DNA of 64,000 nt, from NCBI GenBank assembly GCA_043228905.1, contig JBHGNT010000013.1, forward strand, positions 20,832,001-20,896,000, given 5' to 3'. The translations under genes and the position numbers were made by a program. Shown here in pieces: positions 13,130 to 61,948 of the stretch. The DNA is from Azolla caroliniana (taxonomy: Eukaryota > Plantae > Polypodiophyta). The stretch's first letter is position 1, and each line of letters begins with the position of its first letter. Below the pieces are notes generated by a model. The model saw only the letters and a list, made by a program, of their open reading frames with translations, did not search any database and was not told the DNA's origin.

Positions 13130-14807
13130 TGTCGAGGAAATCCTCGCGTGTTCACGAAATGAAGCGGAATCGTCGGGGTCCTGGACCAGAAGAACTCGAG
13201 TTTGTACTCGCTTTAGCGAGAAAGTATGTAAGATAGATAAAGAGAGACCAAGATTCCAATTTTGAGATAGATTGAAAGAGAGAGAGAGAGAGAGAGAGAT
13301 TGAACCCTTGACTTCAAATTTGAGGGAAAAGATACATCACCAATAGGATAACTAGTTTTTTTATTATTAAAATTTTTCATTTAAACTTATTTCCCCTCTT
13401 CTTTTTCATCCATTCTTTTATAGATGCCCCCCATGCATATGATGCATGTGAGGGTGCAAGACATGCATGTGATACATGTTTGTCATTTGGCGCTCATGCA
13501 TCACATTCAAGCTCTCATGTATGAGAATTTACATGTAAAACTATAATTAAAGAAAGGGAAAAGTACCAGGATACCCTTGTAAGTTTGTCTATTTATCAGA
13601 ATGCCCTTGAAAGTTCCAAAATTACCAAACTACCCCTATGTCCAAAAAAATACACTTTATAAAGTAATTATACACTCAAATCTACAAGCCCTATTTACCA
13701 GAATACCCTTAAACCTAAACTTATTTACCATAATGTCATTGTATACCTATTTTGGCCAATTTATACCACTTTTATTTTTCAAAATACATCATAAATCAAA
13801 CTAAATTATCAAAATTACATTATATATCAAAAATTTTAATTGAAATGTCACCTTAAAATCCAATTCTATGAATTTAGTGTAAAATCCATGAAATTTGGTT
13901 TAAGATGGCATTTTAATAGCAAAGTATTATGTGAGATTTCGTTTAAAATGACATTTTGGTAGCAAAGTTTTTTGTGAGATTTGGTTTAACATTTTGGCCG
14001 CAAATTGTTTGTGAATCCGCAAATGCATGGACTTTGGCTTCAAAGTGGCATCTCAATGGTAAAATTTGGTGTGCGATCAAATGTTTTGGTTTTAAGATTA
14101 AATTTTGGTCATTGCAATCACAAATTTTGGTTTTATGGGATTAAGCCAGTATAACTTTGTGTAAATTCATAGAATTGGATTTTAAGGTGACCTTTAAATT
14201 AAAAAATTTGATATATAATATATTATATAATTTTGATAAATTAGTTTGATTTATGATGTATTTTGAAAAATAAAAGTGGTATGAATTGATCAAAATAGGT
14301 ATATAGTGGCATTATGGTAAGTAAGTTTAGGTTTAAGAGTATTCTGGTAAATAGGGCATGTAGATTTGATTGTATAATTACTTTTAAAGTGTATTTTTTT
14401 GGACATATGGGTAGTTTGAAACTTCCAGGGGCATTTTGGTAAATAGGCAAACTTCCAGGGGTATCTTGGTACTTTTCCCTTAAAGAAATGACTTAGCTTA
14501 CTGATAAGTCCATTGGCTTTTATTTTGGGGGGTGCAAGGTTCAAGCCTTGCTTGCATCCCTTTGTATACACTCAAAATGTTATTGGGCTTTAGTCTTATT
14601 TATATTTACAAATGTTTGAGTGCACATCACACGTGCACATGTTTAACTTTACATCTGGCCTTTTCTTTACGATTCTCATTTTAGTCCTAATTACAACATG
14701 CTAGCATATGCATGTGGTCACCACCCCTTTCACATATGCACATTGCACCTTCTTGGTTTTGTTCGTTTCACATGATTTTCACACCGTTGCCGAAAATCTT
14801 CACGACA
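13130..14807 (-). mobile_element. Solo-LTR-like element related to 22420-23490, interrupted by a MULE
   Basis: Termini TGTCGAG...CACGACA; shares the core CCCCCATGCATATGATGCAT..GAGGGT.CAAG.CATGCATGTGAT with 22420-23490; no TSD found. Confidence 0.6.
13556..14479. mobile_element. Mutator-like (MULE) non-autonomous foldback element
   Basis: About 320-bp TIRs (GGGAAAAGTACCA...TGGTACTTTTCCC); perfect 9-bp TSD TTAAAGAAA at 13547-13555 and 14480-14488. Confidence 0.92.
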
Positions 14808-17350: not shown

Positions 17351-18948
17351 AGCTGAACGAGGGCCCATACCTATGCATGTGTATGTGTATGTTTGAATGT
17401 TTTCGTCTCAATAATATTTTTGGTTTCCTTGGATATAATGTAAACATCAAAAGCATGCCAATATTCTTAAAAATGACCTAAAATATTGTAATTGAAAATG
17501 TCAAGAGGTCAATACTATTAACATTCGTCCTAAATAATCCATTCAAATATACTAGTCCCTTTATAGCTATACAATTTCTAAGATAAAATTTAAAAACAAA
17601 GTGTTTTGGGATGAATCACCATGATATCATTAATCAAACAACCGAGCATACATTGACAAAATATATACGTAGACTTATATTGATGAAATGGAAAATTGAC
17701 ACAATGCATTCTAGTTATTTTCATTTTCACAATAGAGAAGGAACATCCCCTCCACACACACATAACGTCAATGAGGGGGAAACTATAACTTCAACCATTG
17801 GTTGATCGGTTAGAGACAATGAAGAAAGAGACTAAGTGATGGAGGAAATTTACACTAAAGATCGGGTGGTGATACCATCTTATTCATTAGGTTATAGAGA
17901 ATATATACATATACATAGAAACAATAGTGAGAAAAAGTCTAAAAGTACCTATGGCCCAATACTATTAGAGTATGTTGTTTTCCATTTGGGAATTTCTCTC
18001 CATAATAGAGAGCAATGGAGATGAATTCGTATGCATTCACGGAGGGTAGAATGAGTTAGTGAAGAATGGGGAATCACAAGATCCAATTGTTAATGGCAAT
18101 TGGTGGATTGTCCATCATAAATTTGAGGTGCTCTTGCATGAGCTAGGCCTCCATATGTACATTGTAGACACACATTCAAGGGAGAGATTATATATCTTTA
18201 TATATCTAGATTGAGGAGACATAAATACCATCTAAATGTGATTTATGGCATTGATCAAGCCAATGACAAAGATCGAATTTGGGGTATCTCAATGTGTCCA
18301 CTTATGTAGGGGTCCTTGGGATGCTTCATGTATGGTAGTCCGCACTTCTTGAATGATCTCTCTAACATTATTCTTCATGGCACTCCCAAGTATGGTTAGC
18401 ACAAAGTGTTGGTGAATGCAATGATGCAGTATTTCTGTAATCTCATCACGATTACATGACATTGGCTACTACTTGTACAATATACATCCCTATTTAATAT
18501 AGTGAGGAACTGAACCCAACGTAGTTCACGTTCAACTCCTTTATTTTTTCATGAGCATCTAGTGAAGTAACCATATGATGAAATTTGAAACGCGATGTGT
18601 TGGATGGCGAGAATCACACTAGGCCCAATTATCTACACAACGTTAGAGAAAGGAATGAGGCCATATGTATTGGCATGGGAGGGGGGACACTTGTAAAATG
18701 GGTCCAAATATTGGACTCATATTATGTATGTATCTCTACTCCACTCTAGAAAACCACAAATTGATCGAAGGAACGATGGAGGTAATGAATCAGACGGATT
18801 TGAGACTGAATTTCCATTAGGTTTGGGTCGGAGCATTGGCCATCTTAAGTGTTTGTATGTGCAGCAGGTCTGAATGTGACATTACCAGCATTACCATCGA
18901 ATTGGCATTAGCTGAATCAGAGGAATTCCAAGGAACAGAGCAACACAT

Positions 18949-18950
<2 letters not shown>

Positions 18951-18983
<33 letters not shown>
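18951..18983 (+). repeat. (ATG)11 microsatellite forming the start of paralog A
   Basis: Eleven consecutive in-frame ATG codons precede AAG ATG ATA AGG. Confidence 0.9.
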
Positions 18984-18985
<2 letters not shown>

Positions 18986-20167
18986 GATGATAAGGCTCCT
19001 CCCCTTCCAGCTCCTCCTACCTGCCCTTCTCTTCCTTACGGCTCTCAGCCCCGCCTCGTTTCCGCCTGTGATCTATGGTGTCTCGGCGCAGTCGAGCGTG
19101 GCAACATGTACCGCGAGCACCCAAGCATTGCAAGCGGCTTGCGGCACTGAAACAAGTACCACGACCACATGTTGCCCTGTCTATGAATCTCAGGTCAATG
19201 CCTACTACGATTGCTATTGCTCTCTCAACACCACTCTCCTCCTCCAACTGGCCACTGCCTGCTCCTTCATGCTTCCCCAGAATCTCACTTCATGCTTCCC
19301 ACCAGGTACATACATACTGATACATACTGATACATACATACATACATACATACAGGAATCCTTTCATGAATCAAATAATCAGACACGCAGGGCACACACT
19401 AACCATAAGATTTCAAGAAATTATCAATGGCGTCTGCATCTTGTAGACTACTTACGAATCGTAGTGATTGTAATATTTGCAGCCACACCACCATCATCAC
19501 CACCATCATCACCACCACCATCACTACCACCACCACCACCACCACCTCCACCCCCACCTCCAACATCTTGTGATGCGGTTTGGGAGGCTCTTCGTACTGC
19601 TTGCAATAATGGCACACTCACCCAATGTTGTAACCAGATCTCAAGCTCTATGACTGACACTCCAACTTGCTATTGTGAGTTCACCAGTCTCAACGTAACC
19701 ATCTTCTATAACATCGTTGCCCCCAACACATGTAACCTGGTTGTCCCTCCCACCGTTTCCGCATGCCTCGCTGGTAAGCACCCCAAAAAACAAACCTTTC
19801 TCTGTTCATGACATAAGGTTTGCCTAAGCTCACCAATTCCATCCATTAGCTGTGTCCTCTTGCTAAATTTTAATTCTTTCTCTCAGCCTTGTCTCCTCCC
19901 TCACCATTGCCATTCACATCATCGCCACCGCCACCGCCACCGCCACCGCCACCGCTATCTCCACCTCCGGTTTCTACTGCTCCGCCACCGCCATCACTGC
20001 CGCTACTCACATCGCCGCCTCCGCCTCCACCAGTAGCCAAAACCGCCCCTCCTCCTCCATCTAACACGCCAAGCGTCATTGGTGGTGCTAACATTCTACC
20101 CACATCCACACAAACTCTCCTCATCATGCTTATAACTATACAACTACCCCTCCCCTTCTTCATGTGA
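18951..20167 (+). CDS. Paralog A: secreted double-8CM, Pro-rich, probable GPI-anchored protein (LTPG/xylogen-like superfamily); exons 18951-19305, 19483-19773, 19887-20167
   Basis: Hydrophobic leader ending VSA|Q; two C-Xn-C-Xn-CC-X12-CYC-Xn-C-X10-C domains; SP(n) linkers; hydrophobic C-terminus; phase-1 GT-AG introns conserved with paralog C. Confidence 0.85.
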
Positions 20168-20760
20168 AGGAACAAGGAACTCCTCCATTCTAGTTGATGT
20201 TGATGACCCACCATAATTACCGACTTTATATACACCACACAAGCAAAACATCATCTGTGCCGCCTCATACTTTGCACTCTAATATCTCCCATAACATTCC
20301 TAATAATCATCAAAATACTTGTGTCCCTAGTGAGCCACACTGTGGATCAAGAAAAAAAAATCACAAGTGACGTTTTTTCTTTTGTATTTGATTTGTGGCA
20401 TTTTGCCGAAACGGATGGAATAATTATTTTTCTTTAAAATTAACATGTTATATATAATAACTTTTGTGTCCAATGTAGCTAGGCAATTTTGGTTTTGTAT
20501 TGTCTGGAATTTAGAACTCCTATGGAATGCAATCAGGAATCTACCCATGAATGTGGATATATGGTAAGGGAACTAAGTCAGATGTTTAAAATTGGAAAGT
20601 AATTTGGTCTACGTTATTTGTCCATTTCATTCATAATAATTTGAGGAGTCTAGGGATGGAATAATGATTCTCTTTCCACACAACATAATACCTTGAGTGT
20701 TTTGTATTGGTACATTCATCACAAATCCATTGCCTTAGTCTAGGCTATTCCTGCCTTCTA

Positions 20761-23700
20761 TGTTGGAAAATGTAAGGAAAACAATAAAATTGTAAAATAA
20801 TTAAAAATAAACAGTTACGACTCTTGATACGAAGAGTCACATGTATCATACATAAAAAGAAAACACGCCTCTCTCTAATTGAGGAGAGAAGAGCAACAGG
20901 AAATAAAAATAACAGAATTCATCATTCTTTCTTTCTCTATCTCCTTGACTCTGTTTCTGTAGATGGTATCAGAGCCACAATTATAGAGAAACAGACAACA
21001 GAATCAATACATCGATCTGCAGACCAGAATTCTTACCTCTTTAAAGACCTGTACATTCCTGGTTCTGAACTTTTATTAAACCATGGCTCAGGCAACTTCT
21101 TCATCATCTCAAAATCTCCTATATAGAAAAACAACAATTAGCAAATTTAATAGCACCAACTACAGAGTTTGGAGCAGCAAAATGACCCTCATATTCAAAC
21201 AACTAAAATTATGGGCAGTTGTTGAGGGCAAAGAGACCCAACCCACAACGTTAGACCCGAACTATGCTGCATGGGAAGAAAAAGATCTAGTGGCAAAGCT
21301 AGAAATTATGTCGAATCTGGAGGACCAGCAAGCTGACACGATCAGAAATTGCTGCACTGCAAACGTGATGTGGATCGACTTGAAAAACGAATTCGAACCA
21401 ACCACAGATGGAAATCAGGTCATGACTCTAAACTCATTAGTAATTTTAAAAATGCAAGAAGAGGAGGATATGTGTGCATTTATAAACTCATGGAAACGCA
21501 AACTAGATGACTGTCTTACGTCTGGAGTTGAAATAGAGTCAAAATTGCAAAGACTTCTCCTATTAGGTGCATTGCCACCATCATGGAGCACTTTCGTCAC
21601 CACCCAAAATTTCAATACAAACACAACTCTCATTGACCTCATAAATTGTATAAGACAAGAAGAGGCAATGAAAAAGGCATGTCGACCGGAACAAACACAA
21701 CACACATTAACAATGGTAGCATACCATAGCAAACAACCCTCTCAAAATCAAAGAGCGGAATACAAGCCCAAATATTACCCAGAAAATTTTAGATCACAAA
21801 TCGGAGGTCTTAGGTTCTCACAAATTTTCTGCACCATTTGCAAGAAATCTGGACATACAAACAATCAATGTAGGTTTAGACAAACCAAAATTAAACAACC
21901 ATATCAAAGATCTAGATCTCGAGTAGAAGCCCACTTAGTTGAAGAAATCTCAAAAGATGAATCATACCCAACTGAAACAAACAATGAAAAAATTGACGAC
22001 GGTTATGATGACCTCTTGCAAGCATTCCTTGCCGAAGCCTTAACAACAGAAATCGACACAAAACAGAAATCTAACAACACCTGGTATTTTGATACCGGTG
22101 CCACTCATCACATGACAAATAATAGACAATCCATAAAAAATTATAACCCCTTACCATCACCAATCCCTGTCGTGTTTGGTAATAATGGTAGGCTAAATGC
22201 TTTAGGAAAAGGGGATGTAAACCTCTTTCTGGAAAACAACCAAGTTCTTATAGTAGACAATGTTTATTTTGTCCTTGGAATCACAAAAAACCTACTATCC
22301 GTCTGTCAAGCAACCAAAAATGGCACCTCCATAAAGTTTGAAGAAACATATGCACAAATTAAGCATAAAACCCCGCATAGACAGATAACCAAATACATCT
22401 GTAAACATCTAGATGACGGTGTCGTGACGTGGCTCGCCTAGAAGCGCAGCGTTGCGCACGCAAAGGATAACGTGAAAGTGAGGAAGGAATCACTAGGATT
22501 ATGGACGGAAGAGACGAAAGAGTAGAGATGGAATGAATAGAGATCAATAAGATATGACAAAATAGGATTTTTAAGGAATATAAGATAAGACAAGATAAGA
22601 TATAAACTAATATATGAGAAAGTGTATGAAATTTATAATCATTTTCATGAAAGAGTTACAAAATGATTGTGCACGTCGTTGAACCTCCGAACTTTGCCTT
22701 GCAAGGTAATCGCTCTTCTCTTTCTTGATCGTAGACCACTACAATCTTCACTTCAATATTTTGATGAAGATAAGGCTCGAACCGCCTCCCTCTTGTTGAG
22801 AGTTGACCACCACGACCGCCAAGCTAGAGCTCCACCTTTATCTTAAACTTCTTCCCTTCTTTATCTATTTTTATGATATCTCTTATGTAATACATAATTT
22901 GATTGATATCTCATACCTCTCCCCCTTTTTGATCTTCTCTTTCACCCTTTAAATAGGTGCCCCCATGCATATGATGCATTGGAGGGTACAAGTCATGCAT
23001 GTGATGCATGATAAACATCTCGCTCATTTGAGTTTTTATGTATGAAACAATATATGCAATAACAATAAACATGAAAATATAACCTTAAAGAGAAAGGGCC
23101 TAGCCTAATGGTAAGTGTGTTAACTTTGGTGTATGAGGTTGTGGGTTCAAGTCTCAAAATACTATTGAATTGAACATACAACTTTATTTTTATATCATGA
23201 AGCAAATCCTTTATGTAATATAAAGTATGCTTTATTTTATCTATATTACTAGTATAGAGTAAATGGTAAGATTTGAGAGTCATAGGGTGGGGTTATTGGT
23301 TCAAGTCCTCTCTTGTTTGTGTAATATAATATATTTATCTATATATATATTATTTTTCTTTACGTATATATAATATTATCATATGTGTTGTTAATATTAT
23401 CTTTATATATAAAACATTATCAAATGTTATTTTAGTTACGTATTTATCTTATTGTAGACTTTTAATGTGAAGCTTTCGTACTTCACGACAACGGACTCTA
23501 TCGCATCCCATGCACACCCACAACCATCACTTTAGAAGCACACTATACATCAACAAATGAACAATCTACCTTAACAATTCTGTGGCACCATCGACTCGCA
23601 CACACTCATACACAAGCCATAAAAAATATGCAATTTCATAATATGGCACTAGGCCTTCCAAAAGCCCACCTCACAAACTTGACAATATGTGAAGGGTGCA

Positions 23701-26700
23701 TTCTTGGAAAAATGCCCCAACATCCTTTTCCACGTCAACAAACCACAAGTAGTCAACCCCTAAAACTTGTCCATAGTGATCTCTACGGCCCTTTTCCTAC
23801 AAAATCAATAATTTAGTGGATCAATATACTTCATAAGCTTTATCGACGATTATAGTAAATTCACCGTTATTACTTTCTTAAAAACAAAAAATCAAGCCAT
23901 ATCTGCATTCAAAAATTACCTTCACCTCGCTAAAAATCTAACTAACCACAAACTAAAATCCCTACAATTGATGGTGGAGGGGAATATCACTCAAAGGAAT
24001 CCATACATTTTTGCCAATCACAAGGAATCCACCATCGGAGGTCCGTTCCACACACACCTCAACAAAATGGCACTGCAGAAAGAAAAATAGAAGCTTGTTA
24101 AATGCTACTAGCAACATGCTACATGTTGCAAAACTAGAATCAAAATTCTGGGAAGAAGCTATTGCGACAACTTGCTATATCCAAAATCGAGTCTACCATC
24201 ACTCACTAGGCTTCCTCACTCCATTTGAACTCTGATATGGACATAAACCACACCTCCAAAATTTGAAAATATTCGGTTGTCCTGCATTTGCTCACATACT
24301 AGACACCAAAAGAAAGAAACTTGACACAAAAGCCAAGAAAGCAATCTTTGTCGGCTATGGCGACGCCCACGGTTATAAAGCCTATCGCCTATATAACCTT
24401 GACACAAACACATTTTTTTTCAGTAGAAGCGTCCTATTTGATGAAGATAACATTCTTCAAAAACCTAAGAGTCCCACAAATTCTTTAACAAACATAGAAA
24501 CAGATAAACACCATCAAGGTAATGTCACTTCCTGGCCACTACAACTTGACTAACACTCCTTACATGATCCGCACCACGGCTCCTCCGGCACAACCGCTAC
24601 ACCATCCTCAATTTCCCTCAGCCTGACGACACCCTCACATTATCACTTCTCTGATGATGAATATGACTCCACATTTTTTGGACTCCCAAATAAACTCATC
24701 ATACGATGCATAATCTTCCCCTTTGTATGAAGACAACCATGTGTACAAATATCAAAAACTTACCTGAGCAAAGAGACCTGTCTGCAACGCTCCATTACCA
24801 CGGGCCGAGCAAGATGACCATATTTGACCAACTCCATCTTCTGCTCGGTTGCTCGATCATCGCCCACAGTCACCCTTGCACGTCACTGATCAAGCTTCGT
24901 CCTCTACTACCTACAGAACCATGTCTTCTGACGAGGATGGAGAAGACAGTCACGACCACATGCGACCGACACCGATAGACCATCGCGACTGTCCTGAACT
25001 GTCCATTGCTGACTTACACAGCAGGAAACAGAAGATCACGTCACCGAGCCCGCATCCTTCACTCAGTTCCCAAAATAGAACTGACCACTCAAACATCGGG
25101 CAGCCACATGTTTTGTCACACCCAAAGACTTTGAACGATTTTAACTCTCTAAACACCCTGCAAACTAAACATCAGACCATCTCTAACATCGACACTACAC
25201 CTCCTAGACGCCTTAGAAAACTGTCAGACATCTACTAGGAATTAGACGAACTAGAGTGTCATTTTAGCGATCTCGAGACGGGGCATACATCTAACCTTGA
25301 TGTAGACAGTCCACATATTGATTTCGAAGAACCTACCAATGTTGAAGAAGCACTTCAGAGCCAAAATGCCGATTATTGGATAAACGCAATGAAAGACGAA
25401 ATGCATTCCCTCACCAAAAATGAAACATGGGACCCAGTGACAAAACCCTCCGACCGTAAGATCATCACTTGCAAGTGGGTACTCTGAATAAAGTATGACC
25501 CTCAAGGACAACCTGTTCGCTTCAAAGCAAGATTAATTGCTCGAGGTTTCACACAAGTATTCGAAATAGACTTCACAAATACTTTCAGTCCTACACTACG
25601 AATAACATCTTTTCGACTACTTGTGGCCATCGCTGCGGCTCAAAAGCTTGAGCTTCATCACTTGGATGTTCAAACTGCGTTTTTACATGGTGACCTCGAA
25701 GAAGAAGTCTATATGGCGCAACCCCCCTATTTTCAAAATACACAATTTCCAACACACGTCTGCAAACTTCAGAAGTCTATCTACAGCCTAAGACAATCAC
25801 CTCGAGCGTGGTACTGTCGTCTCCATACTTTCTTAATAAAATGTGGCTATAGTAGACTTAAAAGTGAACCTAACATCTATCTTAGAAAATCGGCATCCAA
25901 CTTCATCATATTAGGAGTATATGTGGATGATTTTCCCTTATTATCAAATTCTCTATCTCATTTAAATTTTTGTAAACAAGAGTTGAAATTAGTTTTTCCT
26001 ATCACCGATCTTGGACCCATGACCTATTTTCTAGGAATAGAAGTAAAAAGAAATACAAGTCTAGGACAAATCTCACTCTCACAATCTCAATACATTGATA
26101 ATATTCTAAAATGTTTTAACATGGAACACTGCAAACCCATATCTACCCCACTTCCTACCACAATTAAGTTGTCCATTGAAGATAGTCCAAAATCACTCAT
26201 AGAAGAAACTGAAATGGAAAACATTCTCTATAGACAAGTAATAGGCTCCATACGATATCTAGTTTGTAGTACGAGACCAGATTTATGTTTTAGTACAGGA
26301 TTACTATCATGATTTATGATGAACCCTAGCCCCAAACATTGGCAAGCACTTAAGAGAATTCTTAGATATCTTAAACATACTAAACACTCGTGTCTTACTT
26401 TTCAATCCATGCATTCGGAGTTGATCCAACCAAAATTGTGTGGATGGGCAAACCCCTCAACTGCGCTTCATGGATGGACCGACGCCAACTGGAGAGGAGA
26501 TGTGGATGACCAAAAATCCACAAGTGGCTACGTTTACACCTTTGCAGGAGGAGCGATTGCGTGGACGTCGAAAAAACAAACTATGGTTTCACTATCTTCG
26601 ACAGAAGCGGAATATGTTGCCGCTACCCTAGCTACAAAAGAAGGAATTTGGCTAAAAGCCATATTAGAAGAAATAAATTTTGCTGAAGAAAAACCAATAG

Positions 26701-27187
26701 AAATCTACTGCGACAATTAATCATGTTTGAAGTTGGCAAGCAACCCAAGAATTAGCGACAATATACGTCACATATCTTTCAAGCATCATTTCTTAAGAGA
26801 CATGATTGAAGAAAAGAAGATCAACATAAAGTTTATGCCATCAACTTTGATGTGGGCAGATTTCTTAACAAAGCGAGTAGCAAGTCATAAACATCTACAA
26901 TGTTGCAAAAACATTGGACTACTCAATCATACAAAAACTGAAGATAAAAGCTTCGAATTTTGATTATTTTCCTTAGGGAGGAGTGTTGGAAAATATAAGG
27001 AAAACAATAAAATTGTAAAATTATTAAAAAATAAATAGTTACGACTCTTGATATGAAGAGTCACATGTATCATACATAAAAAGAACACACACCTCTCTCT
27101 AATTGAGGAGAGAAGAGCAACAAGAAATAAAAATAACAGAATTCATCATTTTTTCTTTCTCTATCTCCCTGTCTCTGTTTCTCTAGA
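20761..27187 (+). mobile_element. Ty1/Copia LTR retrotransposon with short LTRs, degenerate; LTRs 20761-20963 and 26984-27187
   Basis: TSD TTCTA on both sides; PBS TGGTATCAGAGCC (Met-i) 20964-20976; PPT AGGGAGGAG; gag CCHC knuckle, protease WYFDTGA, integrase, RT YVDD and RNase H with stops and frameshifts. Confidence 0.95.
22420..23490 (-). mobile_element. Solo LTR nested in the Copia pol, 4-bp TSD
   Basis: TGTCGTGA...TCACGACA termini; TSD ACGG at 22416-22419 and 23491-23494. Removing it restores the frame H-L-D-D-G-L-Y-R-I. Confidence 0.85.
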
Positions 27188-27559
27188 TTCTATTTGTCCA
27201 AGATTTTCCCAAAGATGGGCACAAGAAGTTGATGCTTAACTTCCCTAAGTAATTTGGTCTAGGGTATTCCTAACTTCATTTGTCCAACATTTTTCCAAAG
27301 ATGGACATGTTCAAGAAGATGTTTTTGCACAAGCAAGTTAACAAACCACATGCACCAAATTTGGAGTAATATATAGAGTATTATGATTACCATATGATGA
27401 CTCGAACCTATGACCTACACATCCTTCATGCATTTAAGAGAGAAACTATTCAAACAGGTTCACGATCAAGATGACGCATTCTAGTTCAATGTTAGTCTTC
27501 AACTCAAATGTTTGAAAAGCAAGTTCATGACATTAGAACAACACTTGCTGGGGGATCTA

Positions 27560-30751: not shown

Positions 30752-31003
30752 GTTATCAAAGGAATAGGATCTGTTTTTCTGTACAAAAGAGCAATAATTT
30801 ATAAAAGGAAGGATACGTGTACTTTGGGGGTTGACCATACAAAGAGGTATAATTCCATTACATTTCTGGCTGTATTTCCATGAGATTCCTGGCATGTTTT
30901 GTGAGTCGTTGAAATTCTGCAATTCACATTACGTATCGCATTTCGCTGCGTTCTTCATCGTTGCAAGAGCCGAGATATCCGTTGCCGAGTGAGAGAGTGA
31001 GTG

Positions 31004-31011: not shown

Positions 31012-31066
31012 GCCACATTTAGCATGGCCATTAGCTTCAAGAGGAATTGAGATTGAAGGAGGAAAA

Positions 31067-34000: not shown

Positions 34001-36504
34001 CTCTTGGCAGGTTGTATGTATGCAAATGCAGTTGCTCCAAATACTCGAAGATGTGATATCTCAGGTGGGTACCCATACCACATGGTGTATGGCACTTGTC
34101 CTTCTATACCTTGGTGAGGGGTTCTATTTTGTAGGTAACAAGCTGTGGCGACTGCTTCTTCCCAGAATCTCGAGGCCATTCCACTCGTCTTCAACATACT
34201 CCTAGCAGCATTTAATAAGGTGCGATTCTTTCTCTCGGCTATCCCATTTTGTTGAGGTGTGTAGACAGTTGACTTTTGATGAAATATACCATTTTTTTCG
34301 TTAAAGGCTTCCCATTCTTGTGAAACAAATTCCCCACCATTGTCACTTCTTATTACTTTAACTTTAAGTTGTGTTTGATTTTCAACAAAGCTCTTATATG
34401 CACAAAATGCTTTGAATGCATTTCCCTTTTGTTTAAGAAAGTTAACCATTGTAAATCGCGAAGTGTTATCAATAAATGTTATAAAGTACCTTGCTCCGGA
34501 GAGTGAGTTGGGAGTTATCGGTCCACATACATCCATGTGAACAAGTTGGAGTAGTTCCTTTGTCTTTGAGTTACTGAGCGGGAATGATTTTTGAGCCATT
34601 TTCCCATACATGCATCCTTCGCAAATATCAATAGATTTAAAGATTGTGGAAGGTAAACCTCTTACTAGGTTCTGATTTTGACACAACTTGAGTATTGGTG
34701 TATGTAGATGACCGAACCGGCAATGCCATAGATAGGTGGGAGACACATTGTCTACTCCTCCTTGATGTACTTCAACAGCTAATACTTCTCCAAGATTTGC
34801 CTTGACAGGATATAGTTGCCCTTGTTTTGGACATACAATTTTTATCTCATGTTGATCATCTTGGATGTATAGGGTAGCTTGTTGTTTGCTGAATTTGACT
34901 GTCATTCCTTTTGCAGTAGCTTGTCCCACAGATAATAGATGTTTTGCAATTCTAGGTACAAAGTATATATCTGAAATTTGTACAACATGATTACTAATGA
35001 GTCTTAATTTGATATTACCTTTCCCAACCGGCACTTTTTGACCTTTGTCTCCGAAGGTGACCTTCAATGGTATTGGGAGCTCTTGATAGTTGTCCAACCA
35101 GTCTTTTCGATATGTTAGATGGTGAGTAGCCCAGGTATCCAAGAACCAGGTGCTATCATCTTCATTTTCTTCAAATGTGTTTGCATTATATGCTTGAATA
35201 TACTCTTCTTCATCAGGTTCTCCATTTTGTTCAGGTGCATCTTCAAAAGAATATTCTGGATTTCTATCATCTTCTTGTTGGATAACCACATTATGTGCTT
35301 GGGGTCGGTTGGATAACCACATCTTCCTTCTTGCAATATCTACAGACGATTCTAAAGCTTCCATTTTGTCGTGAGTTGTTCCCTAGTATTTTTGTGCTTC
35401 ACTCTTGATGTATGTTTTGTTATTATTAGATTCATTATTTCTTACTTTTTCAGGTCTGTATCTTTGTTGGTTTGCTGGATGACCCCTTTGGAATCGATTG
35501 ATGGAGACTGCCATTGCAATCGGTTGAGCATTATTCTTCTTTTGTCGTCGAATGTCTTCATGACGGATCTTAGTAAGTAGCTCAGACAATGTTGCTGTGC
35601 TACTATGCATAGTGATGAATGTTCCCCAAGATTCGGGGAGTTTGCTTAACACTAATCCAATCTTGATGTCTTCTGAGATGGAGTTGCCGGCGGTAGTTGC
35701 ATCATCCATGGCTGCCTCCCAAGTTGATAAGAAGGTAGGAACATCTTCTTCTTCCTGTAAAACACACATATTAAACAGGGTAGCTAAGGTGTGGAGTTTA
35801 GTTGTACCATCTTGAGGTTCGTATAGTTCCTTCAGTTTTGCCCACATTGCAGTTGCAGATGTGAGTTTTCGAATAATTTCTGACTGCTTTTCATCTACAT
35901 TTAACATTATCTCTAGTCTAGCTCTTTTATCCAGCTTTCGCCACTCATGCCATTCGTCTGACTCTCGTTTTGCAGGTTCTGGACTAGCGCCAGTAGTGAT
36001 GTCGAGGAGCTCCTCAACATCAAGTAGCAGCTCCATTCGAGTCTTCCAGGTTTTGTAGTTTTTCTCCGTTAATTTGTCCAAGGTATATTTTCTGCTTGAG
36101 CTTGCCATAGTGATAGTTTTTAGATTTGTTTATTTCAGAAAATCTGTGATGAGTTTTGTTGGTTATAGGGGAGTATGAGATTCAGATTGTGCAACTGAGC
36201 TCTGATACCATGTAAGAAAAGTTCAGAAGATAATGGGCTGGATTGACAACAGAGAACAAGAGAGAGTTTTCAAAGAATGAAGAACAAGGTAAGATCTTAT
36301 ATTAAAAACAGGTGTATTGCAATGTAAGAACCTACAGAAAAATCTAGATGTAGTACCACACACACTACTAAACAATACTAGTTGTTACTTCTTTGTAACT
36401 GTTGTTTTGTCTTTTTCCTTATTGTCTTTTTTGTAACTCATGTTTTGGCTTTATCCTCATAACTCATGTCTTATCATTTGTGGTGTAAACAGGTAATCTT
36501 AACA
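31067..36504 (-). mobile_element. Young Ty1/Copia LTR retrotransposon; 5' LTR 36211-36504, 3' LTR 31067-31358
   Basis: TSD GAAAA at 31062-31066 and 36505-36509; PBS TGGTATCAGAGC; poly-G PPT; gag 35383-36108; 1213-aa pol ORF (integrase, RT YVDD). By eye the LTRs differ by about 3 substitutions and one 2-nt indel. Confidence 0.96.
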
Positions 36505-36510
36505 GAAAAG

Positions 36511-37103
36511 ATGATGATCATGAGGCTCCATATGTGTTTCCTGCTGCCTGCCCTTACCCTCCTCCTCCTCCTTACTGTATTGAGCTCCTCCTCTTTGCTT
36601 CCCTCAATCTACAGTGTGTCGGCGCAGGGCATCTCAGGAACGTGTCTCCTGAGTTTAAGCACATCGCGAGACGCTTGTGCTGGATTCTACAGCAGCGAAA
36701 CTACATGTTGCCCTGTCTATAAAACAGAAGTAAATGCTCACCCCGATTGCTATTGCGACCGCTCCCTCGATCGCACTTCCCTCGTCCAACTGGCCACTGC
36801 CTGTTCCTTCACTCTCCCCCAAAATCTCACTTCATGCTTTTCATCAGGTATAATATATTGTAATCATTTCATTAACCAGATCAAGCAGGCGATGTAGCTT
36901 AATGCACTCCATTTATTCGATCTTATCTATCCATTTATCTATGTATGTATTGGCAAAGCACCATGAATACAACCGTATTAGGATATGAAATTGGAACCTT
37001 AAATATCAAGTGATCGATTTTGAAAAACATGGATCTTGAAAATGTAAATGTTTACTGCAACATACGTGAATGATGCCTATGTGGACATGCCGGATGCTTC
37101 TTC

Positions 37104-37139
<36 letters not shown>

Positions 37140-37382
37140 CATCCGGCATGTGAATGATGCCTATGTGGACATGCCGGATGCATCCTCATAATATATATGT
37201 GCATACATTATGCATACTTGATCTGAAGCCATAGGATTTGAATAATGAAAGAAGGGTAACTGCATGTATACTTAAATTTTAAAACTGATTGTATATTTGC
37301 AGGCACATCACCACCATTCTTACCGTCAACACAAACACTCATCATGACGGCTGTAACAATTGTGGTGGCTTTGTTCATGTGA
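36511..37382 (+). CDS. Paralog B: single-8CM secreted, probable GPI-anchored protein; exons 36511-36847 and 37303-37382
   Basis: Signal peptide; 8CM domain (TCLLSLSTSRDAC...CC...CYC...C...C); phase-1 intron; short exon GTSPPFLPSTQTLIMTAVTIVVALFM*; spliced length 417 nt, in frame. Confidence 0.8.
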
Positions 37383-39006
37383 AGGAAGTATTTATATTTG
37401 ATGATGATCCAAAATAGCCTACTGTCAGTACACAAGAAAATATGTACCTAATACCTTGCACTGTAATATCTCCCATAACATTCCCAATAATGATCAAAAT
37501 ACGTGTATGTATGTGTGTCCTTAGTGAGAGACCCATGTCTTAAGAACAAAATCACAATTCTTTTTGTATTCAATTGTGAGATTGCCCCAAGGGATGGAAT
37601 AATGACATATGATCGTCTATTGTAGCTTGATCAATTTTGTTTTATATTGTTGGAATCCAGCAGTCAAATGCGATAAGAAATCCAAAGATGAATGTGGATA
37701 TGGTAAGGTATAAGTCAATGATTAAGTCTCAAAGTAATTTGGTCTATGGGAATTTCGTAGACTTCATTTGTCCAAGATTTCTCCAAAGATGACGATAATT
37801 TTGAGAAATCTGGAGGGTCTTTTGGGCTGTTGGGAGATTCTGATTGTTGTTATGTGTCAATATACGATATACGCACATTGATATGAGTGAAAAATCCACA
37901 ACAACAAAGAAGATAAAGATGGATGAGATGTTTGATTAATAGAGAAATAAAGAAATATATGTCAAGGAAAAAAAAAAGTTAAGATAAATAATATATGTGG
38001 CTTAAAATTATATGCCCATTTTTGTAGTTGAATGCTATATTCATAAAAAACGTTTCATCTTGTTGTCCATCCACCTTCTCCTTCCTCCTTTACATGAGGC
38101 TCCACTACAATGCATGTCTCCAAACTCTCTTCCACTTCCACAACCATTGGCTCATCTCCATGTGCCATCTCTTTACACGACCGTTCCACTCTTGAGATGA
38201 TATACATCTCTCTTGCCTTTCGGCCTCATTATTAGCCTATGCACTGTCCCATGATGAGAAAGTATGTTCTACACCTTCTCCTTTGGTATCTTCGTTTTAC
38301 CTCAATAGGGCCTTCATATTGGCCTCACGCTTTGTCCTCATATCCAAGGAGGCCACTCCATTGTCTTCCACTTTTTGCCTTGGTTTAAGCTCCATGGCTC
38401 AATATATCCTTTTCTTCATGTGAAATCTACATACATCTTTAAGCTTTTATACGAACTTTTAATGTAGGCATCCATATTTAATACCATCATACATTTCTCC
38501 CTTGAGCTTTCTTCTCTTGGTGGAAAGGCATAAACCCCTATAGACCTCCTCGGCCTATTTTAGTAGGCTTTGTCATTGTCAGTAAAATTCCCATCTCCCT
38601 TTTATCATGTCGTGGGCGTACTCTTTCCACTTTACCCCAATCTTAAAGTCAACCCATTTGCTTCATCGATATCTTCCAACATATCACACTTCTACGACTA
38701 TCCTCATCTACTCTTTTTTCTATTGTCAACCTTTGGACATGCCGTATCACAAACAACGTAAGCATTTAATGTAATAAGCATTGTTATGTACTGGGTCTCT
38801 CTTGACAGGAGATATCGGCTGGAATGAGGACGAAATCGTCGGATCGACTAGTCGTCCGATTTGAGGATCGGTTGGTTGGTTTCGAACGAAAGGTCGAATT
38901 GAGGGCTGACTGGTTGGATTGAGTAGAGAGGTCGAACTATAGGTTGGTTGAACTTAAGGTTGACTAATCAATTCAACTAGTCGAATGACTATATATATAT
39001 ATATAT

Positions 39007-40208
39007 TGTGAAATGCACATAAGAGATCCAAACCAGTATAGCTAGCTTCATACTTATCATTCAATATATAGAAGATACAAAGAACCCATTTTGGGACGGC
39101 CTAGCTACACGTGTCCCAAAATGGTGTGCTAAAAGGGTGGGCTAAAATGGGTGATGTGCTAAACGGGAGTAGCTAAAAGAGTGGTGTGTTCAAATGCATG
39201 CTCTTGCATGAAAGGGACACCACATTTCTCCCCTCAGAAAAACAAGAGATTGAGGGGCATGAGTGACCATGTGTGGTCCTTGTCGGGAACTGGAACGGTC
39301 CTCGCTGAGAGTTGGAACACGAACACCAACGGGCGTGAGCAACCATGTTGTCCTCACCGAGAATTGGAACACGAACGAGTGAGTGACCATGTGGCCCTCA
39401 CCGGGAACTGGAACACGAACAACACGGGCATGAGCGATCATGTCGGTCCTCACTGGGATCTGGAACACGAACAATAGTTGGAGTGAGCGGCCATATGCGG
39501 TCCTCACCGGAGACTGGAACACAAACGGGAGTGAGCGACCATGTGGCCCTCACCAGGAACTCGAACACGAATGGGTGTGAGCGGCCATGTGCGGCCCTCA
39601 TCGAGAACTCGAACACGAACGGGTGTGAGCGACCATGCGTCCCTCACCAGGAACTAGAACACGAACACCAACGGGAGTGAGCAGCCATGTGTGGCCCTCA
39701 TCGGGAACTCAAACACCAACGGGCATGAGCGACCATGCGGCCCTCACTGGGAACTGGAACACGAACACGAACACGAAAGAAACTAAAAAATAGAGACAAT
39801 GAAGCGATGTTGATGATGAAGCAGTGGATATCGGGAGGCCTAACTAGTGAACTAAGGCGGTGCTAATAGAAGAGATACTACTACAAGAGACTAACAAGAG
39901 TGTCGGTGATGGTGGTGAGGGCGATGCTACCTACGAAGCGGAAGAGGCGGATGCTTGGATGTGGGGGACTGGGACCCATCATCTCCACCAATATGTGAAA
40001 TGCACATAAGAGATCCAAACCAGTCTACCTAGCTTCATACTTATCATTCAATATATAGAAGATACAAAGAACCCATTTTGGGACGGCCTAGCTACACGTG
40101 TCCCAAAATGGTGTGCTAAAGGGGTGGGCTAAAATGGGTGATGTGCTAAACGGGAGTGGCTAAAAGAGTGGTGTGTTCAAATGCATGCTCTTGCATGAAA
40201 GGGACACC

Positions 40209-40211
<3 letters not shown>
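39007..40211 (-). mobile_element. TRIM-like non-autonomous LTR element with internal minisatellite, inserted in (TA)n
   Basis: 218-bp TG..CA direct repeats at 39007-39224 and 39994-40211; minus-strand PBS TGGTGGAGATG (39980-39990); PPT TGAGGGGAGAAA; no recognisable coding domains. Confidence 0.88.
39257..39775. repeat. Tandem minisatellite, about 11 units of 44-50 bp
   Basis: Consensus approximately GTGAGCGACCATGTGGCCCTCACCGGGAACTGGAACACGAAC(ACCAAC)GGG. Confidence 0.9.
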
Positions 40212-41649: not shown

Positions 41650-42222
41650 TGTTACACAGACGAGTAGACGAGGCTAAATTCTAAAAGAAAGAGACAGGAT
41701 AAGATAAGAGAACAAGAAAGAGAGAGAGCATAAGATAAGAGGACAAGAAAGAGAGAGAGAATATAGACAAGAGAACAAGAATTCAATTTATGCTTTTGTA
41801 ACTGGTGTTGCTCACCTTGATTAGAATCAAGGTGCACTTGAGTTTTTATAGAAGAACGAGGAGATATGCAATATTTTAGAAAATGCTTGACATTAAGGAC
41901 ACATGCAAGCTAGGAAACATCTAGAGAAGTTTCTTGAAAATTCTAGTAATGAACCTACAATGTAAGAAGTTTAATCTTATAAAATAATGCATAGATAGAT
42001 GTAGTTCAATTGGTATGGTTGCTCAATGAGATTAGGAGGTCATGGGTTTAACCCCTACATTCCACTGTGGCATCATGTCTATCACATTATCCTCCGTCTT
42101 AGGCCGCCACCCAAGGTATGCGGTGGACTTATGAGGATATCGTTGATGAAAAACTCGAATGGCATGTGGAACATTTCATAAATGTGTAACTAGTTCCCAT
42201 GTGGCATCCGAAATTGGGTAAA
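41650..42222 (-). mobile_element. 3' end of a Ty3/Gypsy chromovirus: chromodomain remnant, PPT and 3' LTR (41650-42086)
   Basis: Minus-strand YPISDATWELVTHL*NVPHAIRVFHQRYPHK (chromodomain C-terminus), purine tract AAGACGGAGGATAA, then a TG..CA LTR. Confidence 0.72.
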
Positions 42223-58520: not shown

Positions 58521-59083
58521 TTTTTATTATGTAAATCTAAAATGAATGCTTCTGTAATATTCTTGGGGTCATTTTGTATTCTCGAATATGAGGAATATTA
58601 CGGATGTCGAATACCAAGAATATCATGCATGGGTCAATCTATGAATGTAACATATATCCTTGTTTAATATGCAAAGGACGCGAGTACTCACCATCGTAGC
58701 CCTCTTATATTTTTCAAGGTCATCTAGTGAAGTAATCATATAGAGGAATATTGAAAATTTTGCGAGAATCACAGTAGGTCAATTCTGAAATGGACGATAG
58801 AGAAAGGAATGATGGATGCGAGACTTGTATTACATATTGTAACATCATCGTGAGCCACGTTTGTGTCACATACAAGTTTTGTTTAAATCCCAATACTCAT
58901 CCTTTCTGACTTGCCCACCCTAAACCAATAATTTATCTAAGTAATGATAGGGATAATGTGGGGAAGAAGAGGGAGGGGGGTTTGAACTTGACCACTCAAA
59001 CAAGTGGTATTGACTTGAATTAACAAGTCAGAACATGGACATCATGGTGGGTTGTTTTGTTGGGGTGGGGTGTGTGGTGTGTG

Positions 59084-59093
59084 TATATATATA
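59084..59093 (+). promoter_or_regulatory. Probable TATA box of paralog C
   Basis: TATATATATA about 65-70 bp upstream of the ATG; context conserved with paralog B. Confidence 0.6.
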
Positions 59094-59156
59094 GCTGACA
59101 TTACCATTAAAGTTGACATAGCTTGCAAGCAGGGAGCGGTGGGGAGAAGTACATAC

Positions 59157-60528
59157 ATGGCCATGAAGCTTCTCCTCCTCCTCCTATCTGCCCTTCTCTA
59201 CCTTATGGCTCTGAGCTCTTCCACCCCCTGGTTGCCGCCCCTGATCTATGGTGTCTCGGCACAGTCGAGCGCGGCAACCTGCAGCACGAGCCTACAAGCA
59301 TTGCAAGCCGCTTGCGGCAGTGACACGAGTACTGCGACCACATGTTGCCCTGTCTATGAATTTCAAGTCAATGCCTACTACGATTGCTATTGCAACCGTA
59401 ACACCACTGCCCTCATCGGACTTGCCACCCTCTGCTCCTTCACGCTTCCCCAGAATCTCACTTCATGCTTCCCATCAGGTAAGTATATACATAATATACA
59501 TATACATATATGAATCCTTTCATGAATCAAATAATCAGACAGGCAGGGCACACGGTATACTAGGTTAATGCACCCACCCCATTCATTTTCATCTCTGCCT
59601 TATCAGGCTATGGGAATCGAAACCTTAAATGTGAAGTTGGCCATTGTGGAAATAGTGATATTGCATATGTCCACTTGGAGGATGTGAAACCTCAAATCAA
59701 AGAGATAATGTTGGTCTTGCATGTATACTTAAATTTTCTTTTTTTGTTTTACTGATTGATTGTGTATTTGCAGCCACACCACCACCGCCTTCACAATCTA
59801 CACCCCCATCCCCAACGCCAACAGCAACTTGCGATGCGGCTTGGCAGGCTCTTCTTACTGCGTGCAATACTTCACGCACCCAATGTTGTAATCAGATCTC
59901 AAGCTCTATGACTAACACTCCCAGTTGCTATTGTGAGTTTACCAGTCTCAACGTTACCGCCTTCTATAACCTGGTTGGCCCCAACATATGTAACCTGGTT
60001 GTCCCTCCCATCGTTACCGCATGCCTCGCTGGTAAGCAAACAAAAGGATGTTACAGACCACCCTTCTAGTTCATGAGATAATGTCAACAAGTTTGCCTTC
60101 ACAATTCCATCCATCCATTGTAGAAGGGTTTTAGGGTTTGCGTGTGTGTACTATGTATGTCGTAGCTGCGTTGTAAGTTTATGTGTATGTACTATGTACC
60201 ACCAGCACAGATCTTCGCTACATGTGTTAATGCGTGTTAATGCAAAGCAACTTTGTTTTTCTCAGCCTTGTCTCCTCCTCCACCGCCATTCAAATCACCG
60301 CCTCCGCCTCCGCCTCCGCCTCCAACCGTCTCGCCACCTCCGCCTCCAACCGTCTCTCCGCCTCCGCCTCCAACCGTCTCTCCGCCTACGCCTCCAACCG
60401 TCTCGCCGCCTCCGCCTCCTCCTCTTCCACCATCCCTTATTAATAGCGGTGATGCTAATTCTTTACTCGCATCGATACAAACGCTCCTCTTCATGGTCCT
60501 TACTATAGGAGCGGCTTTGCTCATGTGA
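59157..60528 (+). CDS. Paralog C: secreted double-8CM, Pro-rich, probable GPI-anchored protein; exons 59157-59478, 59774-60031, 60266-60528
   Basis: Same exon structure and phases as paralog A; open frame through all exons; 24-bp repeats encode PPPTVSPP; hydrophobic C-terminus. Confidence 0.87.
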
Positions 60529-61948
60529 AGGACATTTTTTATAGTTGTTGATGATCATCCAAAATAAACTCCTACCAACAACACAAGGAAACATTTGTTC
60601 GTAACACCTTGCACTGATGTTTCACATAAACATTCCCAATAACGATCTGGAGACGTTTGTGTGTCCCTCACGTAGAGAGAGAGACAGACAGACAGATGTG
60701 TTTTGCAAGAAACAAAATCATTCCGACTGTGGGATGTCCGAAAGGGATGGAAAAATGATGTTGTATTTATTCCAACATTTGAATGTATAATACCTTGGAT
60801 ACGTATCTATTGGAGCTTGGTAATTCTTGTTTCGTAATTTTGGAATCGGGCAACTTAGTAATTGATTGCGCATAAGAGATCCATTGATGAATGTGGGTAT
60901 GGTAAGGGAAACTAAATCAATGAATTTAAGTCCGAAAGGTGATTTGGTGTACTAAGAAATTCGTTAAACTTCCATTCGTCCTAGATTCCTCCAAACGATG
61001 CAGACAGATGTTAACTCGCTGCATTGGTTCACCTAATGATTAAGACTACCTAACTAGACAGATGTAACTGTAGCAATGACCCAAGATATTGATAGTGTAA
61101 TCAAAACTCCGTTGATTCTAAGTCTTTCACTGGAAACTTCTCTTTTAGTTGGGAGGCGGTCTTGCTCATAGCACTAATTGAATTTGATGCAATAGCGAGG
61201 TCATCAACATAGATCACCACGAACCATCAGACAGAACCACAAAAGTCCTTTTATTTCGTTGGTGATGACTCATTGGATTCGATTCGTCATCATGCTTAGT
61301 TGATTTTGGCCATTGCTATAATATATATCCTTGTTTAATATACAGAGGAAGTGAACACCCAAAGTACTTACTCAACATCCTAGCGCTCGAATATTTTTCA
61401 AGGGCATCTAGTGAAGTAATCGTATAGAAGAATATCGGACATTTTGCTAGAATCAAACTAGGTCCAATTTTGAAATCGATGATAGAGATAGGAATGATGC
61501 ACTGTGAGACTTCAAAGACAGGAAAATGGAGAGGAAAAAACTCTGATACATAGCAAAAAACCATAATTGGTCCATAAATGACGGCTGCAAAAATTTCTGC
61601 CTGTATACAGCAGAGAGGTTTTCTATCTCACCCTATAGCAAAAATAAACTAAAAATAAGAGCACACGCCATTTTGGCCTTTTCACACATTATGTACATGT
61701 ATATATGTACCTATAACAATCTCCTACTAACATAAGTATCTTTAAAATATAGATATAAATAATCCTCAAAACAACTCATACTACTTTAAAAATATAATAA
61801 TCATAACTAATAATAATAAGTAATTCAAATAAATAGATAAATAAAATATAATTGGTAGTATTACCGTGTAAACGAGAGAGGGGGAGTGTAAGAGTTTGGT
61901 ACACCGACATATGGCTATACTAATCTTTGTCCTATCAGGGTATAATAG

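What the first reader, a model, noticed from the sequence alone, without database searches (positions are those of the whole stretch)
23095..23310. Antisense tRNA-like Pol III A/B-box cassettes at a fixed position in three diverged LTRs
Seen: three minus-oriented LTRs carry plus-strand A-box/B-box pairs with tRNA-like 43-44-nt spacing. They are TAGCCTAATGG/GGTTCAAGTC (23101/23144), a second copy TAGAGTAAATGG/GGTTCAAGTCC (23255/23298), TAGCTTACTGA/GGTTCAAGCC (14494/14538, with hairpin GCAAGG-TTCAAG-CCTTGC) and TAGTTCAATTGG/GGTTTAACCCC (42002/42045). The first A box lies about 146, 139 (after removing the MULE) and 152 bp from a minus-strand TATA-like motif, although surrounding sequence has diverged. 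Known: Cassandra TRIMs carry 5S-derived Pol III promoters in their LTRs, and TFIIIC-bound B boxes act as chromatin barriers in yeasts. Inference: these LTRs keep a tRNA-mimic module in U3 as an insulator, anti-silencing site or divergent Pol III promoter. Similar motifs may exist in other plant LTRs; I cannot check the literature.
Basis: partly seen in the sequence, partly recalled or inferred. Interest (0 to 1): 0.75.

Follow-up and report, generated by a model that had tools for sequence, protein, structure and literature searches.

The report
Paired tRNA-like boxes flanking retrotransposon promoters
A family of protein-coding plant jumping genes carries, as an inherited part of its end repeats, two decayed tRNA promoter pieces that point outward on either side of its predicted main promoter, and these likely act as landing sites for a host factor that would keep that promoter open, a role that is untested.

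Summary
The four A/B-box pairs are real and above chance. In 13 outside copies picked by an unrelated core motif plus the two window copies, the antisense cassette is complete in 11 of 14 informative copies and the sense one in 11 of 14. The B core is 0.97 identical between subfamilies while spacers are 0.40-0.56. No cloverleaf remains. These LTRs are Phygy-like Ty3/gypsy (NCGN 4-bp TSD, tRNA-Trp-type PBS, PPT, gag-protease), so LTR1 and LTR2 are homologues, and the TATA distance varies (139-207 bp). LTR3 is likely a chromovirus 3' LTR with only the antisense cassette. They are not per-copy SINE insertions. Closest known: Helenus/Cassandra TRIMs, which are small and non-coding. The scan noted Helenus-type LTRs in other genomes before, but no look-alike of this DNA. 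A TFIIIC boundary around the Pol II promoter is my best guess (0.45), untested.

The parts
22420..23490 (-). LTR1: solo LTR of a Phygy-like Ty3/gypsy family, TG...CA, 8-bp terminal inverted repeat, 4-bp NCGN-type TSD at 22416-22419 and 23491-23494, inserted in the coding region of a Copia element (20761-27188)
   Evidence: sequence; contigs of 4 of 4 runs join across it; ends match relatives
23101..23154 (+). C1: antisense A/B-box cassette in U3, spacing 43
   Evidence: homologues in 10 other copies
23255..23308 (+). C2: second antisense cassette, in a U3 extension that follows a decayed copy of the LTR terminus; not significantly similar to C1 outside the boxes
   Evidence: (score 40, shuffle max 54); L004 has a clear tandem second unit
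22773..22826 (-).
   Evidence: contigs of depth up to 1398 span it
22947..23012 (-). Pol II core of LTR1 (inferred): CATGCA-rich block followed by TATA-like motif starting at 22955; most conserved part of the LTR
   Evidence: (highest depth)
13130..14807 (-). LTR2: LTR of the same lineage, another subfamily, split by a MULE; flanks differ at 3 of 4 letters, so no intact TSD
14494..14548 (+). C3: antisense cassette, homologous to C1, spacing 44
13296..13350 (-). C6: sense cassette of LTR2, 72 bp downstream of the TATA, A box partly decayed
13556..14479 (.). MULE-type non-coding DNA transposon with long TIRs and 9-bp TSD (13547-13555, 14480-14488), inserted between the core and C3
41650..42086 (-). 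LTR3: likely 3' LTR of a truncated chromovirus-type Ty3/gypsy element; TG...CA, TATA-like motif starting at 41850; not alignable to LTR1 or LTR2
   Evidence: (depth steps at both ends)
42002..42055 (+). C4: antisense cassette near the 5' end of U3 of LTR3; most contigs laid here read the canonical B-box letter where the window copy differs
42087..42220 (-). PPT-like tract (42087-42099) and broken C-terminal half of a chromodomain (42140-42220) upstream of LTR3
   Evidence: (Pfam Chromo E 0.033, below the curated cut-off; only family hit)

Best explanation
The cassettes are tRNA-derived A/B boxes that belong to the LTRs of a protein-coding, Phygy-like Ty3/gypsy lineage, one on each side of the TATA block and both pointing outward, and they likely work as DNA sites for TFIIIC that would bracket the element's predicted Pol II promoter and keep it open against silencing. 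Shown: inheritance across subfamilies, outward-facing pair, fixed 43-44 spacing, near-invariant B core, loss of the cloverleaf, element class. Inferred: origin by capture of SINE heads or tRNA genes in an ancestral LTR, then copying by normal retrotransposition; selection on the boxes; TFIIIC binding; the boundary role. A chromovirus-like lineage (LTR3) likely gained or received an antisense U3 cassette separately.
For: Inherited: copies were collected with a 20-mer of the core, not of the cassette. Antisense cassette complete in 11 of 14 informative copies, sense cassette complete in 11 of 14, plus one cut by a contig end and the 5' LTR of L007. Contig depth stays high over all three cassettes of LTR1 with no spike or drop (X1: 11,700-37,900 against 490-2,900 in the flanks). 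Selected: between the two antisense subfamily groups B core 0.97, A box 0.75, spacer halves 0.56 and 0.40; over 15 group pairs 0.90, 0.57, 0.33, 0.41; GGTT and A58 in 20 of 20 cassettes, T8 in 20 of 20. Spacing 43 and 44 hold 15 and 13 hits, no other value from 30 to 70 more than 9. DNA rather than RNA role: acceptor and anticodon stems at shuffle level, 5 of 6 window cassettes fold no better than shuffles, 0 of 15 predicted pairs show compensatory change, and the U3 cassette is antisense to the element RNA. Pol II element: PBS, PPT, gag with DUF4100 and a weak protease hit; TATA in 15 of 15 copies; T4 runs on the element strand at chance level. In LTR3's family the B-box block has the highest depth and contigs link it to the TATA block across unalignable sequence in 3 of 3 DNA runs. 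TFIIIB/TFIIIC barriers in yeast: review PMC9540200, passages.
Against: No binding, chromatin, methylation or transcript data. L006 has an LTR end with an NCGN flank but no antisense cassette, and L003, L008, L010 and the 3' LTR of L007 break off before or inside a cassette, so it may be dispensable. Within a subfamily the A box is no better kept than the spacer (0.68 against 0.79), and many sense A boxes have lost G10. I set spacing to 43 or 44 per copy by eye and anchored on the best B box, which inflates box identity somewhat. Only 15 copies, several near-identical; their species may differ from the window's. Two low-depth joints skip the C1 A box with unknown sequence between, and 34 joints were not shown. 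The passages found in the plant barrier review give no plant example of a tDNA barrier. No RT or integrase was seen linked to these LTRs.
Confidence: 0.45

Rival explanations
1. Cassandra/Helenus-like use: the sense cassette is a Pol III promoter that makes the genomic RNA, at least for short non-autonomous derivatives, and the antisense one is a by-product or partner.
For: The sense cassette lies 64-129 bp behind the TATA, upstream of the PBS. In L007, a derivative with a 2.25-kb interior and one gag-like ORF, the element strand has no T4 run over 2412 nt from the sense B box to the 3' LTR.
Against: That absence is marginal (expected 2.7, P 0.05; 0.09 by codon shuffle), U3 carries T4 runs at chance level, and T5 is not depleted over the 14 family stretches tested (7 seen, about 9 expected). 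The elements encode Gag, which needs capped Pol II RNA (general knowledge), and keep a TATA block. Helenus is 311-1263 bp (PMC10886601).
Confidence: 0.2
2. Both cassettes are divergent Pol III promoters whose short RNAs are the point, for example an antisense U3 RNA of about 110-140 nt that tunes or decoys silencing.
For: A box, B box and spacing are all kept; a T4 or longer run lies 43-62 nt from the B-box start in 7 of 11 antisense copies. Three contigs of one run guessed to be RNA lie only on the LTR3 cassette.
Against: Body sequence and structure are not conserved between subfamilies; T4 runs are common in AT-rich DNA; sense cassettes have no constant terminator; the RNA label of that run is a guess and one contig runs on for 255 nt.
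Confidence: 0.15
3. Neutral relics: SINE heads that landed in an ancestral LTR and are copied passively.
For: A SINE-into-LTR origin is the published model for Cassandra and Helenus (PMC10886601). The B core lacks CG/CHG sites and so mutates slowly in methylated DNA (general knowledge; 18 of 20 have A at position 57). Some copies lack a cassette.
Against: The AT-rich spacer also has few such sites yet falls to 0.3-0.56 identity while its length stays 43-44 in 21 of 22 complete cassettes and flanking distances vary by 60-70 bp. An unrelated lineage keeps the same motif in the same orientation.
Confidence: 0.12
4. The sense cassette works as RNA, a tRNA T-arm mimic in R/U5 that binds RT or Gag or helps primer placement.
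For: The B core is also the T-loop; T stems keep 3-4 of 5 pairs in most copies against 2.0 in shuffles.
Against: The T stem is weaker in the sense cassettes (1-4 pairs) than in the antisense ones, which are not in the element RNA in readable sense; no compensatory changes; the A box and spacing need not be kept.
Confidence: 0.06
5. Independent SINE insertions into each of these LTR copies.
For: SINE-like size and AT-rich sequence behind C1 and C2; many loose ends on both sides of the LTR3 B-box block, so a free SINE with that head is not excluded there.
Against: Same place and alignable sequence in 11 copies; no depth spike over LTR1 cassettes and no listed clean empty-site joint; loose ends in LTR3 agree at about 0.6 and show no homopolymer tail.
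Confidence: 0.03

Closest known systems
Helenus (TRIMp3), Kojima 2024, PMC10886601 (read parts 1-4 of 6 of the main text and the figure legends; supplements not read)
   Same: tRNA-derived sequence inside the LTR; boxes A and B conserved, no functional tRNA; solo LTRs; proposed origin by SINE insertion into an ancestral LTR. The paper also says 'not a few LTRs' in Repbase hold part of a tRNA, without describing the non-TRIM ones.
   Different: Helenus is 311-1263 bp in all, non-coding, LTRs up to 323 bp, one plant case (Selaginella, 5-bp TSD). Here LTRs are 0.7-1.1 kb, elements encode Gag(-protease), TSD is 4-bp NCGN, there are two cassettes in opposite orientation around a TATA, one antisense. 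My word search of the paper found no mention of antisense or opposite orientation.
Cassandra TRIM (as described in PMC10886601; primary paper not read)
   Same: Pol III promoter boxes kept inside a plant LTR.
   Different: 5S-derived type 1 promoter, sense, drives the genomic RNA, non-coding element.
Phygy clade of non-chromovirus Ty3/gypsy (Neumann et al. 2019, PMC6317226; passages and Additional file 5; files 1 and 3 too large to read)
   Same: 4-bp TSD with NCGN preference, tRNA-Trp PBS (81% of Phygy), TG...CA ends.
   Different: Phygy was defined on Physcomitrella RT/RH/INT trees, which I could not test; the passages read say nothing of tRNA-like boxes in the LTR. TatI also has 4-bp TSDs and tRNA-Trp.
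tDNA and B-box (TFIIIC) chromatin barriers of yeasts and mammals (review PMC9540200, passages; S. pombe B-box boundaries and mouse B2 SINE boundary recalled, from no call)
   Same: A/B or B boxes next to Pol II promoters, tRNA product not needed.
   Different: Those are host loci; here the sites are carried by a retrotransposon in a plant, and binding is not shown.

Membership tests
Helenus / TRIMp3 | tRNA-derived sequence with conserved A and B boxes inside the LTR | tested here: met
Helenus / TRIMp3 | Short TRIM (under about 1.3 kb), no coding capacity | tested here: not met
   LTRs 715-1071 bp; L007 interior 2248 bp with a gag-like ORF of about 700 aa; L013 gag
Helenus / TRIMp3 | Genomic RNA made by Pol III from the LTR cassette | not testable with these tools
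   no raw RNA reads; T-run test inconclusive
Phygy-like Ty3/gypsy (LTR1, LTR2) | 4-bp TSD with NCGN preference | tested here: met
   exact TSD in LTR1; of 8 target-side flanks at the LTR 5' end 6 read NCGN and 8 have C at place 2; LTR2's two flanks differ
Phygy-like Ty3/gypsy (LTR1, LTR2) | tRNA-Trp PBS and PPT | tested here: met
   PBS 7-8 nt behind the LTR in L007 and L013, PPT in L007; assignment of the PBS to tRNA-Trp is recalled, from no call
Phygy-like Ty3/gypsy (LTR1, LTR2) | Placement in the Phygy clade by RT, RH and INT phylogeny | not testable with these tools
   no pol region linked to these LTRs was recovered
Chromovirus Ty3/gypsy (LTR3) | Chromodomain at the 3' end of the coding region, then PPT and 3' LTR | tested here: inconclusive
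   half domain, Pfam Chromo E 0.033, 14.5 bits against cut-off 25.1; chromodomain protein also among weak PDB hits
SINE2 (free tRNA-derived SINE) | Independent insertions with own TSD, tail and empty sites | tested here: not met
   shared position and even depth in LTR1/LTR2 family; not fully excluded for the LTR3 block
Functional tRNA gene | Cloverleaf with acceptor and anticodon stems | tested here: not met
TFIIIC barrier / insulator | TFIIIC occupancy and B-box-dependent block of silencing | not testable with these tools
   needs ChIP and reporters

The most novel reading that the evidence does not exclude
Protein-coding plant retrotransposons carry their own tDNA-type insulators: an outward-facing pair of TFIIIC sites fences the LTR's Pol II promoter from heterochromatin and DNA methylation, and two Gypsy clades (Phygy-like and chromovirus-like) reached this design separately. 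Thousands of solo LTRs would then seed TFIIIC boundaries across a seed-free plant genome.
Probability: 0.3. Interest if true: 0.85.

Novelty: new variant of a known kind. Interest (0 to 1): 0.6.

Why it matters
How LTR retrotransposons stay active inside methylated repeat regions is open, and whether TFIIIC sites act as barriers in plants is little studied (review PMC9540200, passages). A conserved, outward-facing pair of Pol III boxes around a TATA gives a small, mutable target that tests both at once. It also extends tRNA-bearing LTRs from tiny non-coding TRIMs to protein-coding Gypsy lineages, offers a possible route by which Helenus-type elements arise (internal deletion of an element that already has the boxes), and warns that SINE finders based on A/B boxes will miscall these LTRs.

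Tried and rejected
No whole genome is held, so no genome-wide family survey. ARAGORN and Rfam found no tRNA. Core and LTR3 patterns found nothing in viral contigs or genome contigs; the gag query found no relative in viral contigs. A 'longer' homologue search with the L007 gag region found none, the Atlas gave no answer, so no gag-pol link. No RNA holder was listed for the stretch, which is no evidence either way; the one guessed-RNA run laid gave 3 contigs. None of the 40 listed differences of 269 falls in a box, but this is too few to count. The T-run test for Pol III read-through was marginal. The sigma-70 scan is irrelevant to a plant. Plant tRNA genes have an upstream TATA and CAA (PMC3082873, abstract only); upstream of the cassettes I saw A-rich DNA without a constant motif, by eye only. 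Flank identities were dropped from the conservation claim because ungapped comparison penalises flanks. Rows left out: L007 and L012 antisense and L009, L007 sense (near-identical to kept rows), L010 sense (spacing 47), L009 from the group means. Eight literature searches listed no paper describing paired or antisense tRNA boxes in coding Gypsy LTRs; subscription journals, Repbase entries and unread supplements (Helenus tables, Neumann files 1 and 3, bioRxiv supplements) may hold such cases.

Full report
Observation. The four plus-strand A/B pairs are at the cited places with spacing 43-44. With at most one mismatch per box the window has 4 hits against 0 in each of 8 local dinucleotide shuffles; with two A-box mismatches 8 against 0.6. 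The scan also found minus-strand cassettes at 22826 and 13350, inside the same two LTRs on the other side of the TATA. Five other LTR or TRIM ends in the window have none. A laxer pattern also hit three places in the MULE, all without the B-box C, so its shuffle P values are not to be trusted alone. No tRNA is called by ARAGORN or Rfam.

What the LTRs are. LTR1 is 22420-23490, TG...CA, with an exact 4-bp TSD, inside a Copia coding region; contigs from 4 of 4 runs join across it. LTR2 is 13130-14807, split by a MULE with a 9-bp TSD. The two share a 200-bp core, so they are relatives. A 20-mer of that core, which does not touch the cassettes, fetched 13 copies from metagenome contigs; one of them also holds a TRIM 94% identical to one in the window, so the host is the same or a close species. 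L007 and L013 show a PBS 7-8 nt behind the LTR and L007 a PPT before the 3' LTR, which fixes the minus orientation. The ORF behind the PBS is a Gag whose full-length relatives carry DUF4100 and a weak aspartyl protease hit. Target flanks read NCGN in 6 of 8 cases. A 4-bp NCGN TSD with a tRNA-Trp PBS is the Phygy signature in Neumann et al. 2019 (PMC6317226, passages and Additional file 5); naming the PBS as Trp is from memory. No RT or integrase was recovered, so I say Phygy-like. LTR3 aligns to neither. Depth steps, a PPT-like tract and half a chromodomain (Pfam E 0.033, below cut-off) make it likely the 3' LTR, 41650-42086, of a truncated chromovirus-type element.

Anatomy. On the element strand: U3 with an antisense cassette, a block of 4-9 CATGCA motifs, TATA, then a sense cassette, U5. 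Of 15 core-bearing copies, 14 are informative on each side. Antisense: complete in 11, A box only in L010, absent in L003 and L006. Sense: complete in 11 (L002 with a decayed box end, L010 with spacing 47), cut by the contig end in L012, absent in L008 and in the 3' LTR of L007, whose 5' LTR has it. TATA to antisense A box is 139-207 bp, TATA to sense A box 64-129 bp: fixed order, variable distance. C2 sits in a U3 extension; L004 has a tandem second unit that lost part of the A box and spacer but kept the B box. Over LTR1 the summed contig depth stays high across all cassettes with no spike, and no clean empty-site joint for a cassette is listed, though 34 joints were not shown and depth is no copy number.

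Conservation. Between the two antisense subfamily groups the 7-nt B core is 0.97 identical, the A box 0.75, the spacer halves 0.56 and 0.40; over 15 group pairs 0.90, 0.57, 0.33 and 0.41. In 20 cassettes GGTT, A58 and T8 are invariant, C56 18, C61 16, G18 and G19 16 each. Caveats: I anchored on the B box and chose spacing 43 or 44 per copy, copies are related, and within one subfamily the A box is no better kept than the spacer. Acceptor and anticodon stems are at shuffle level, D and T stems partly kept; 5 of 6 window cassettes fold no better than shuffles; no compensatory pairs. In LTR3's family the B-box block is the deepest part, most contigs read the canonical box, loose ends upstream carry a canonical A box, and joints tie the block to the TATA block across unalignable sequence in 3 of 3 DNA runs.

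Mechanism. What is kept is what TFIIIC reads: two boxes and their spacing. What a tRNA or a folded mimic needs is lost, and the U3 cassette is antisense to the element RNA. The element codes for protein and keeps a TATA, so its main RNA is likely Pol II. I therefore favour TFIIIC sites that bracket the Pol II promoter and hold it open (0.45). Binding and barrier action are inferred from yeast and animal precedent (PMC9540200, passages). Rivals: Pol III synthesis of the genomic RNA from the sense cassette (0.2; L007 has no T4 over 2412 nt, P about 0.05-0.1, but no family-wide depletion); short regulatory Pol III RNAs (0.15); neutral relics (0.12; L006 lacks the antisense cassette); an RNA mimic (0.06); per-copy SINE insertions (0.03).

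Comparison and novelty. tRNA-derived boxes in LTRs are published: Helenus TRIMs, with Cassandra as the 5S counterpart; that paper also notes that many Repbase LTRs hold part of a tRNA (PMC10886601, parts 1-4 of 6 and legends). This case fails the size and non-coding tests for Helenus and differs by the outward-facing pair, the antisense U3 cassette and the coding Gypsy context in two lineages. Eight searches listed nothing on that layout; passages of PMC7466625 (moss TEs) and bioRxiv 10.64898/2026.03.01.708851 add nothing on it. Earlier scan notes report Helenus-type LTRs in other genomes and no look-alike of LTR1 or LTR3. Host: a seed-free land plant; one gene is nearest to fern proteins at 43-51%, not settled. 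Verdict: real, inherited, apparently selected; a new variant of a known kind; function open; interest 0.6.

Noticed in passing
window 22960-23012, 13428-13500; L001-L013: A cluster of CATGCA (RY/Sph-like, B3-factor site; name recalled) motifs just upstream of the TATA: 5-9 per 150 bp in 12 of 13 loci against about 1 per kb in the window. It may tie the element to ABA, desiccation or spore programmes.
   Followed up: partly
window 30833-30993 (-): Isolated 5.8S rRNA fragment (Rfam E 1e-16, 3' part decayed) next to the Copia LTR at 31066.
   Followed up: no
L007 7517-9764: Non-autonomous derivative with PBS, one gag-like ORF with a long low-complexity tail, and PPT; the protein's cluster P0003 has 15 members; no T4 run on the element strand.
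   Followed up: partly
window 27408 (-); L001 40 (+); L005 1836 (-): Further B boxes with weak A boxes in other repeats, so tRNA-like boxes may be common in this genome's elements.
   Followed up: no
window 39007-40211: TRIM-like element with 218-bp terminal repeats (98% alike) and an interior of about 50-bp tandem units; a 94% copy of the repeat lies in L010.
   Followed up: no
window 18900-20170, 36460-37800, 59000-61000: Three copies of a gene for a proline-rich, cysteine-patterned secreted protein (lipid-transfer or hybrid proline-rich type by eye), separated by nested retroelements.
   Followed up: no
L006 core +145 to +490; L013 2743-2938: L006 has the middle of U3 replaced by unrelated sequence and a duplicated sense B box; L013 holds an inverted U5 fragment of the same family, with cassette, inside its own coding region.
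   Followed up: partly
window 13715, 13983, 14330: Weak A/B-like matches at 43-44 spacing inside the MULE, two of them mirror copies in the TIRs, all lacking the B-box C; probably chance.
   Followed up: partly
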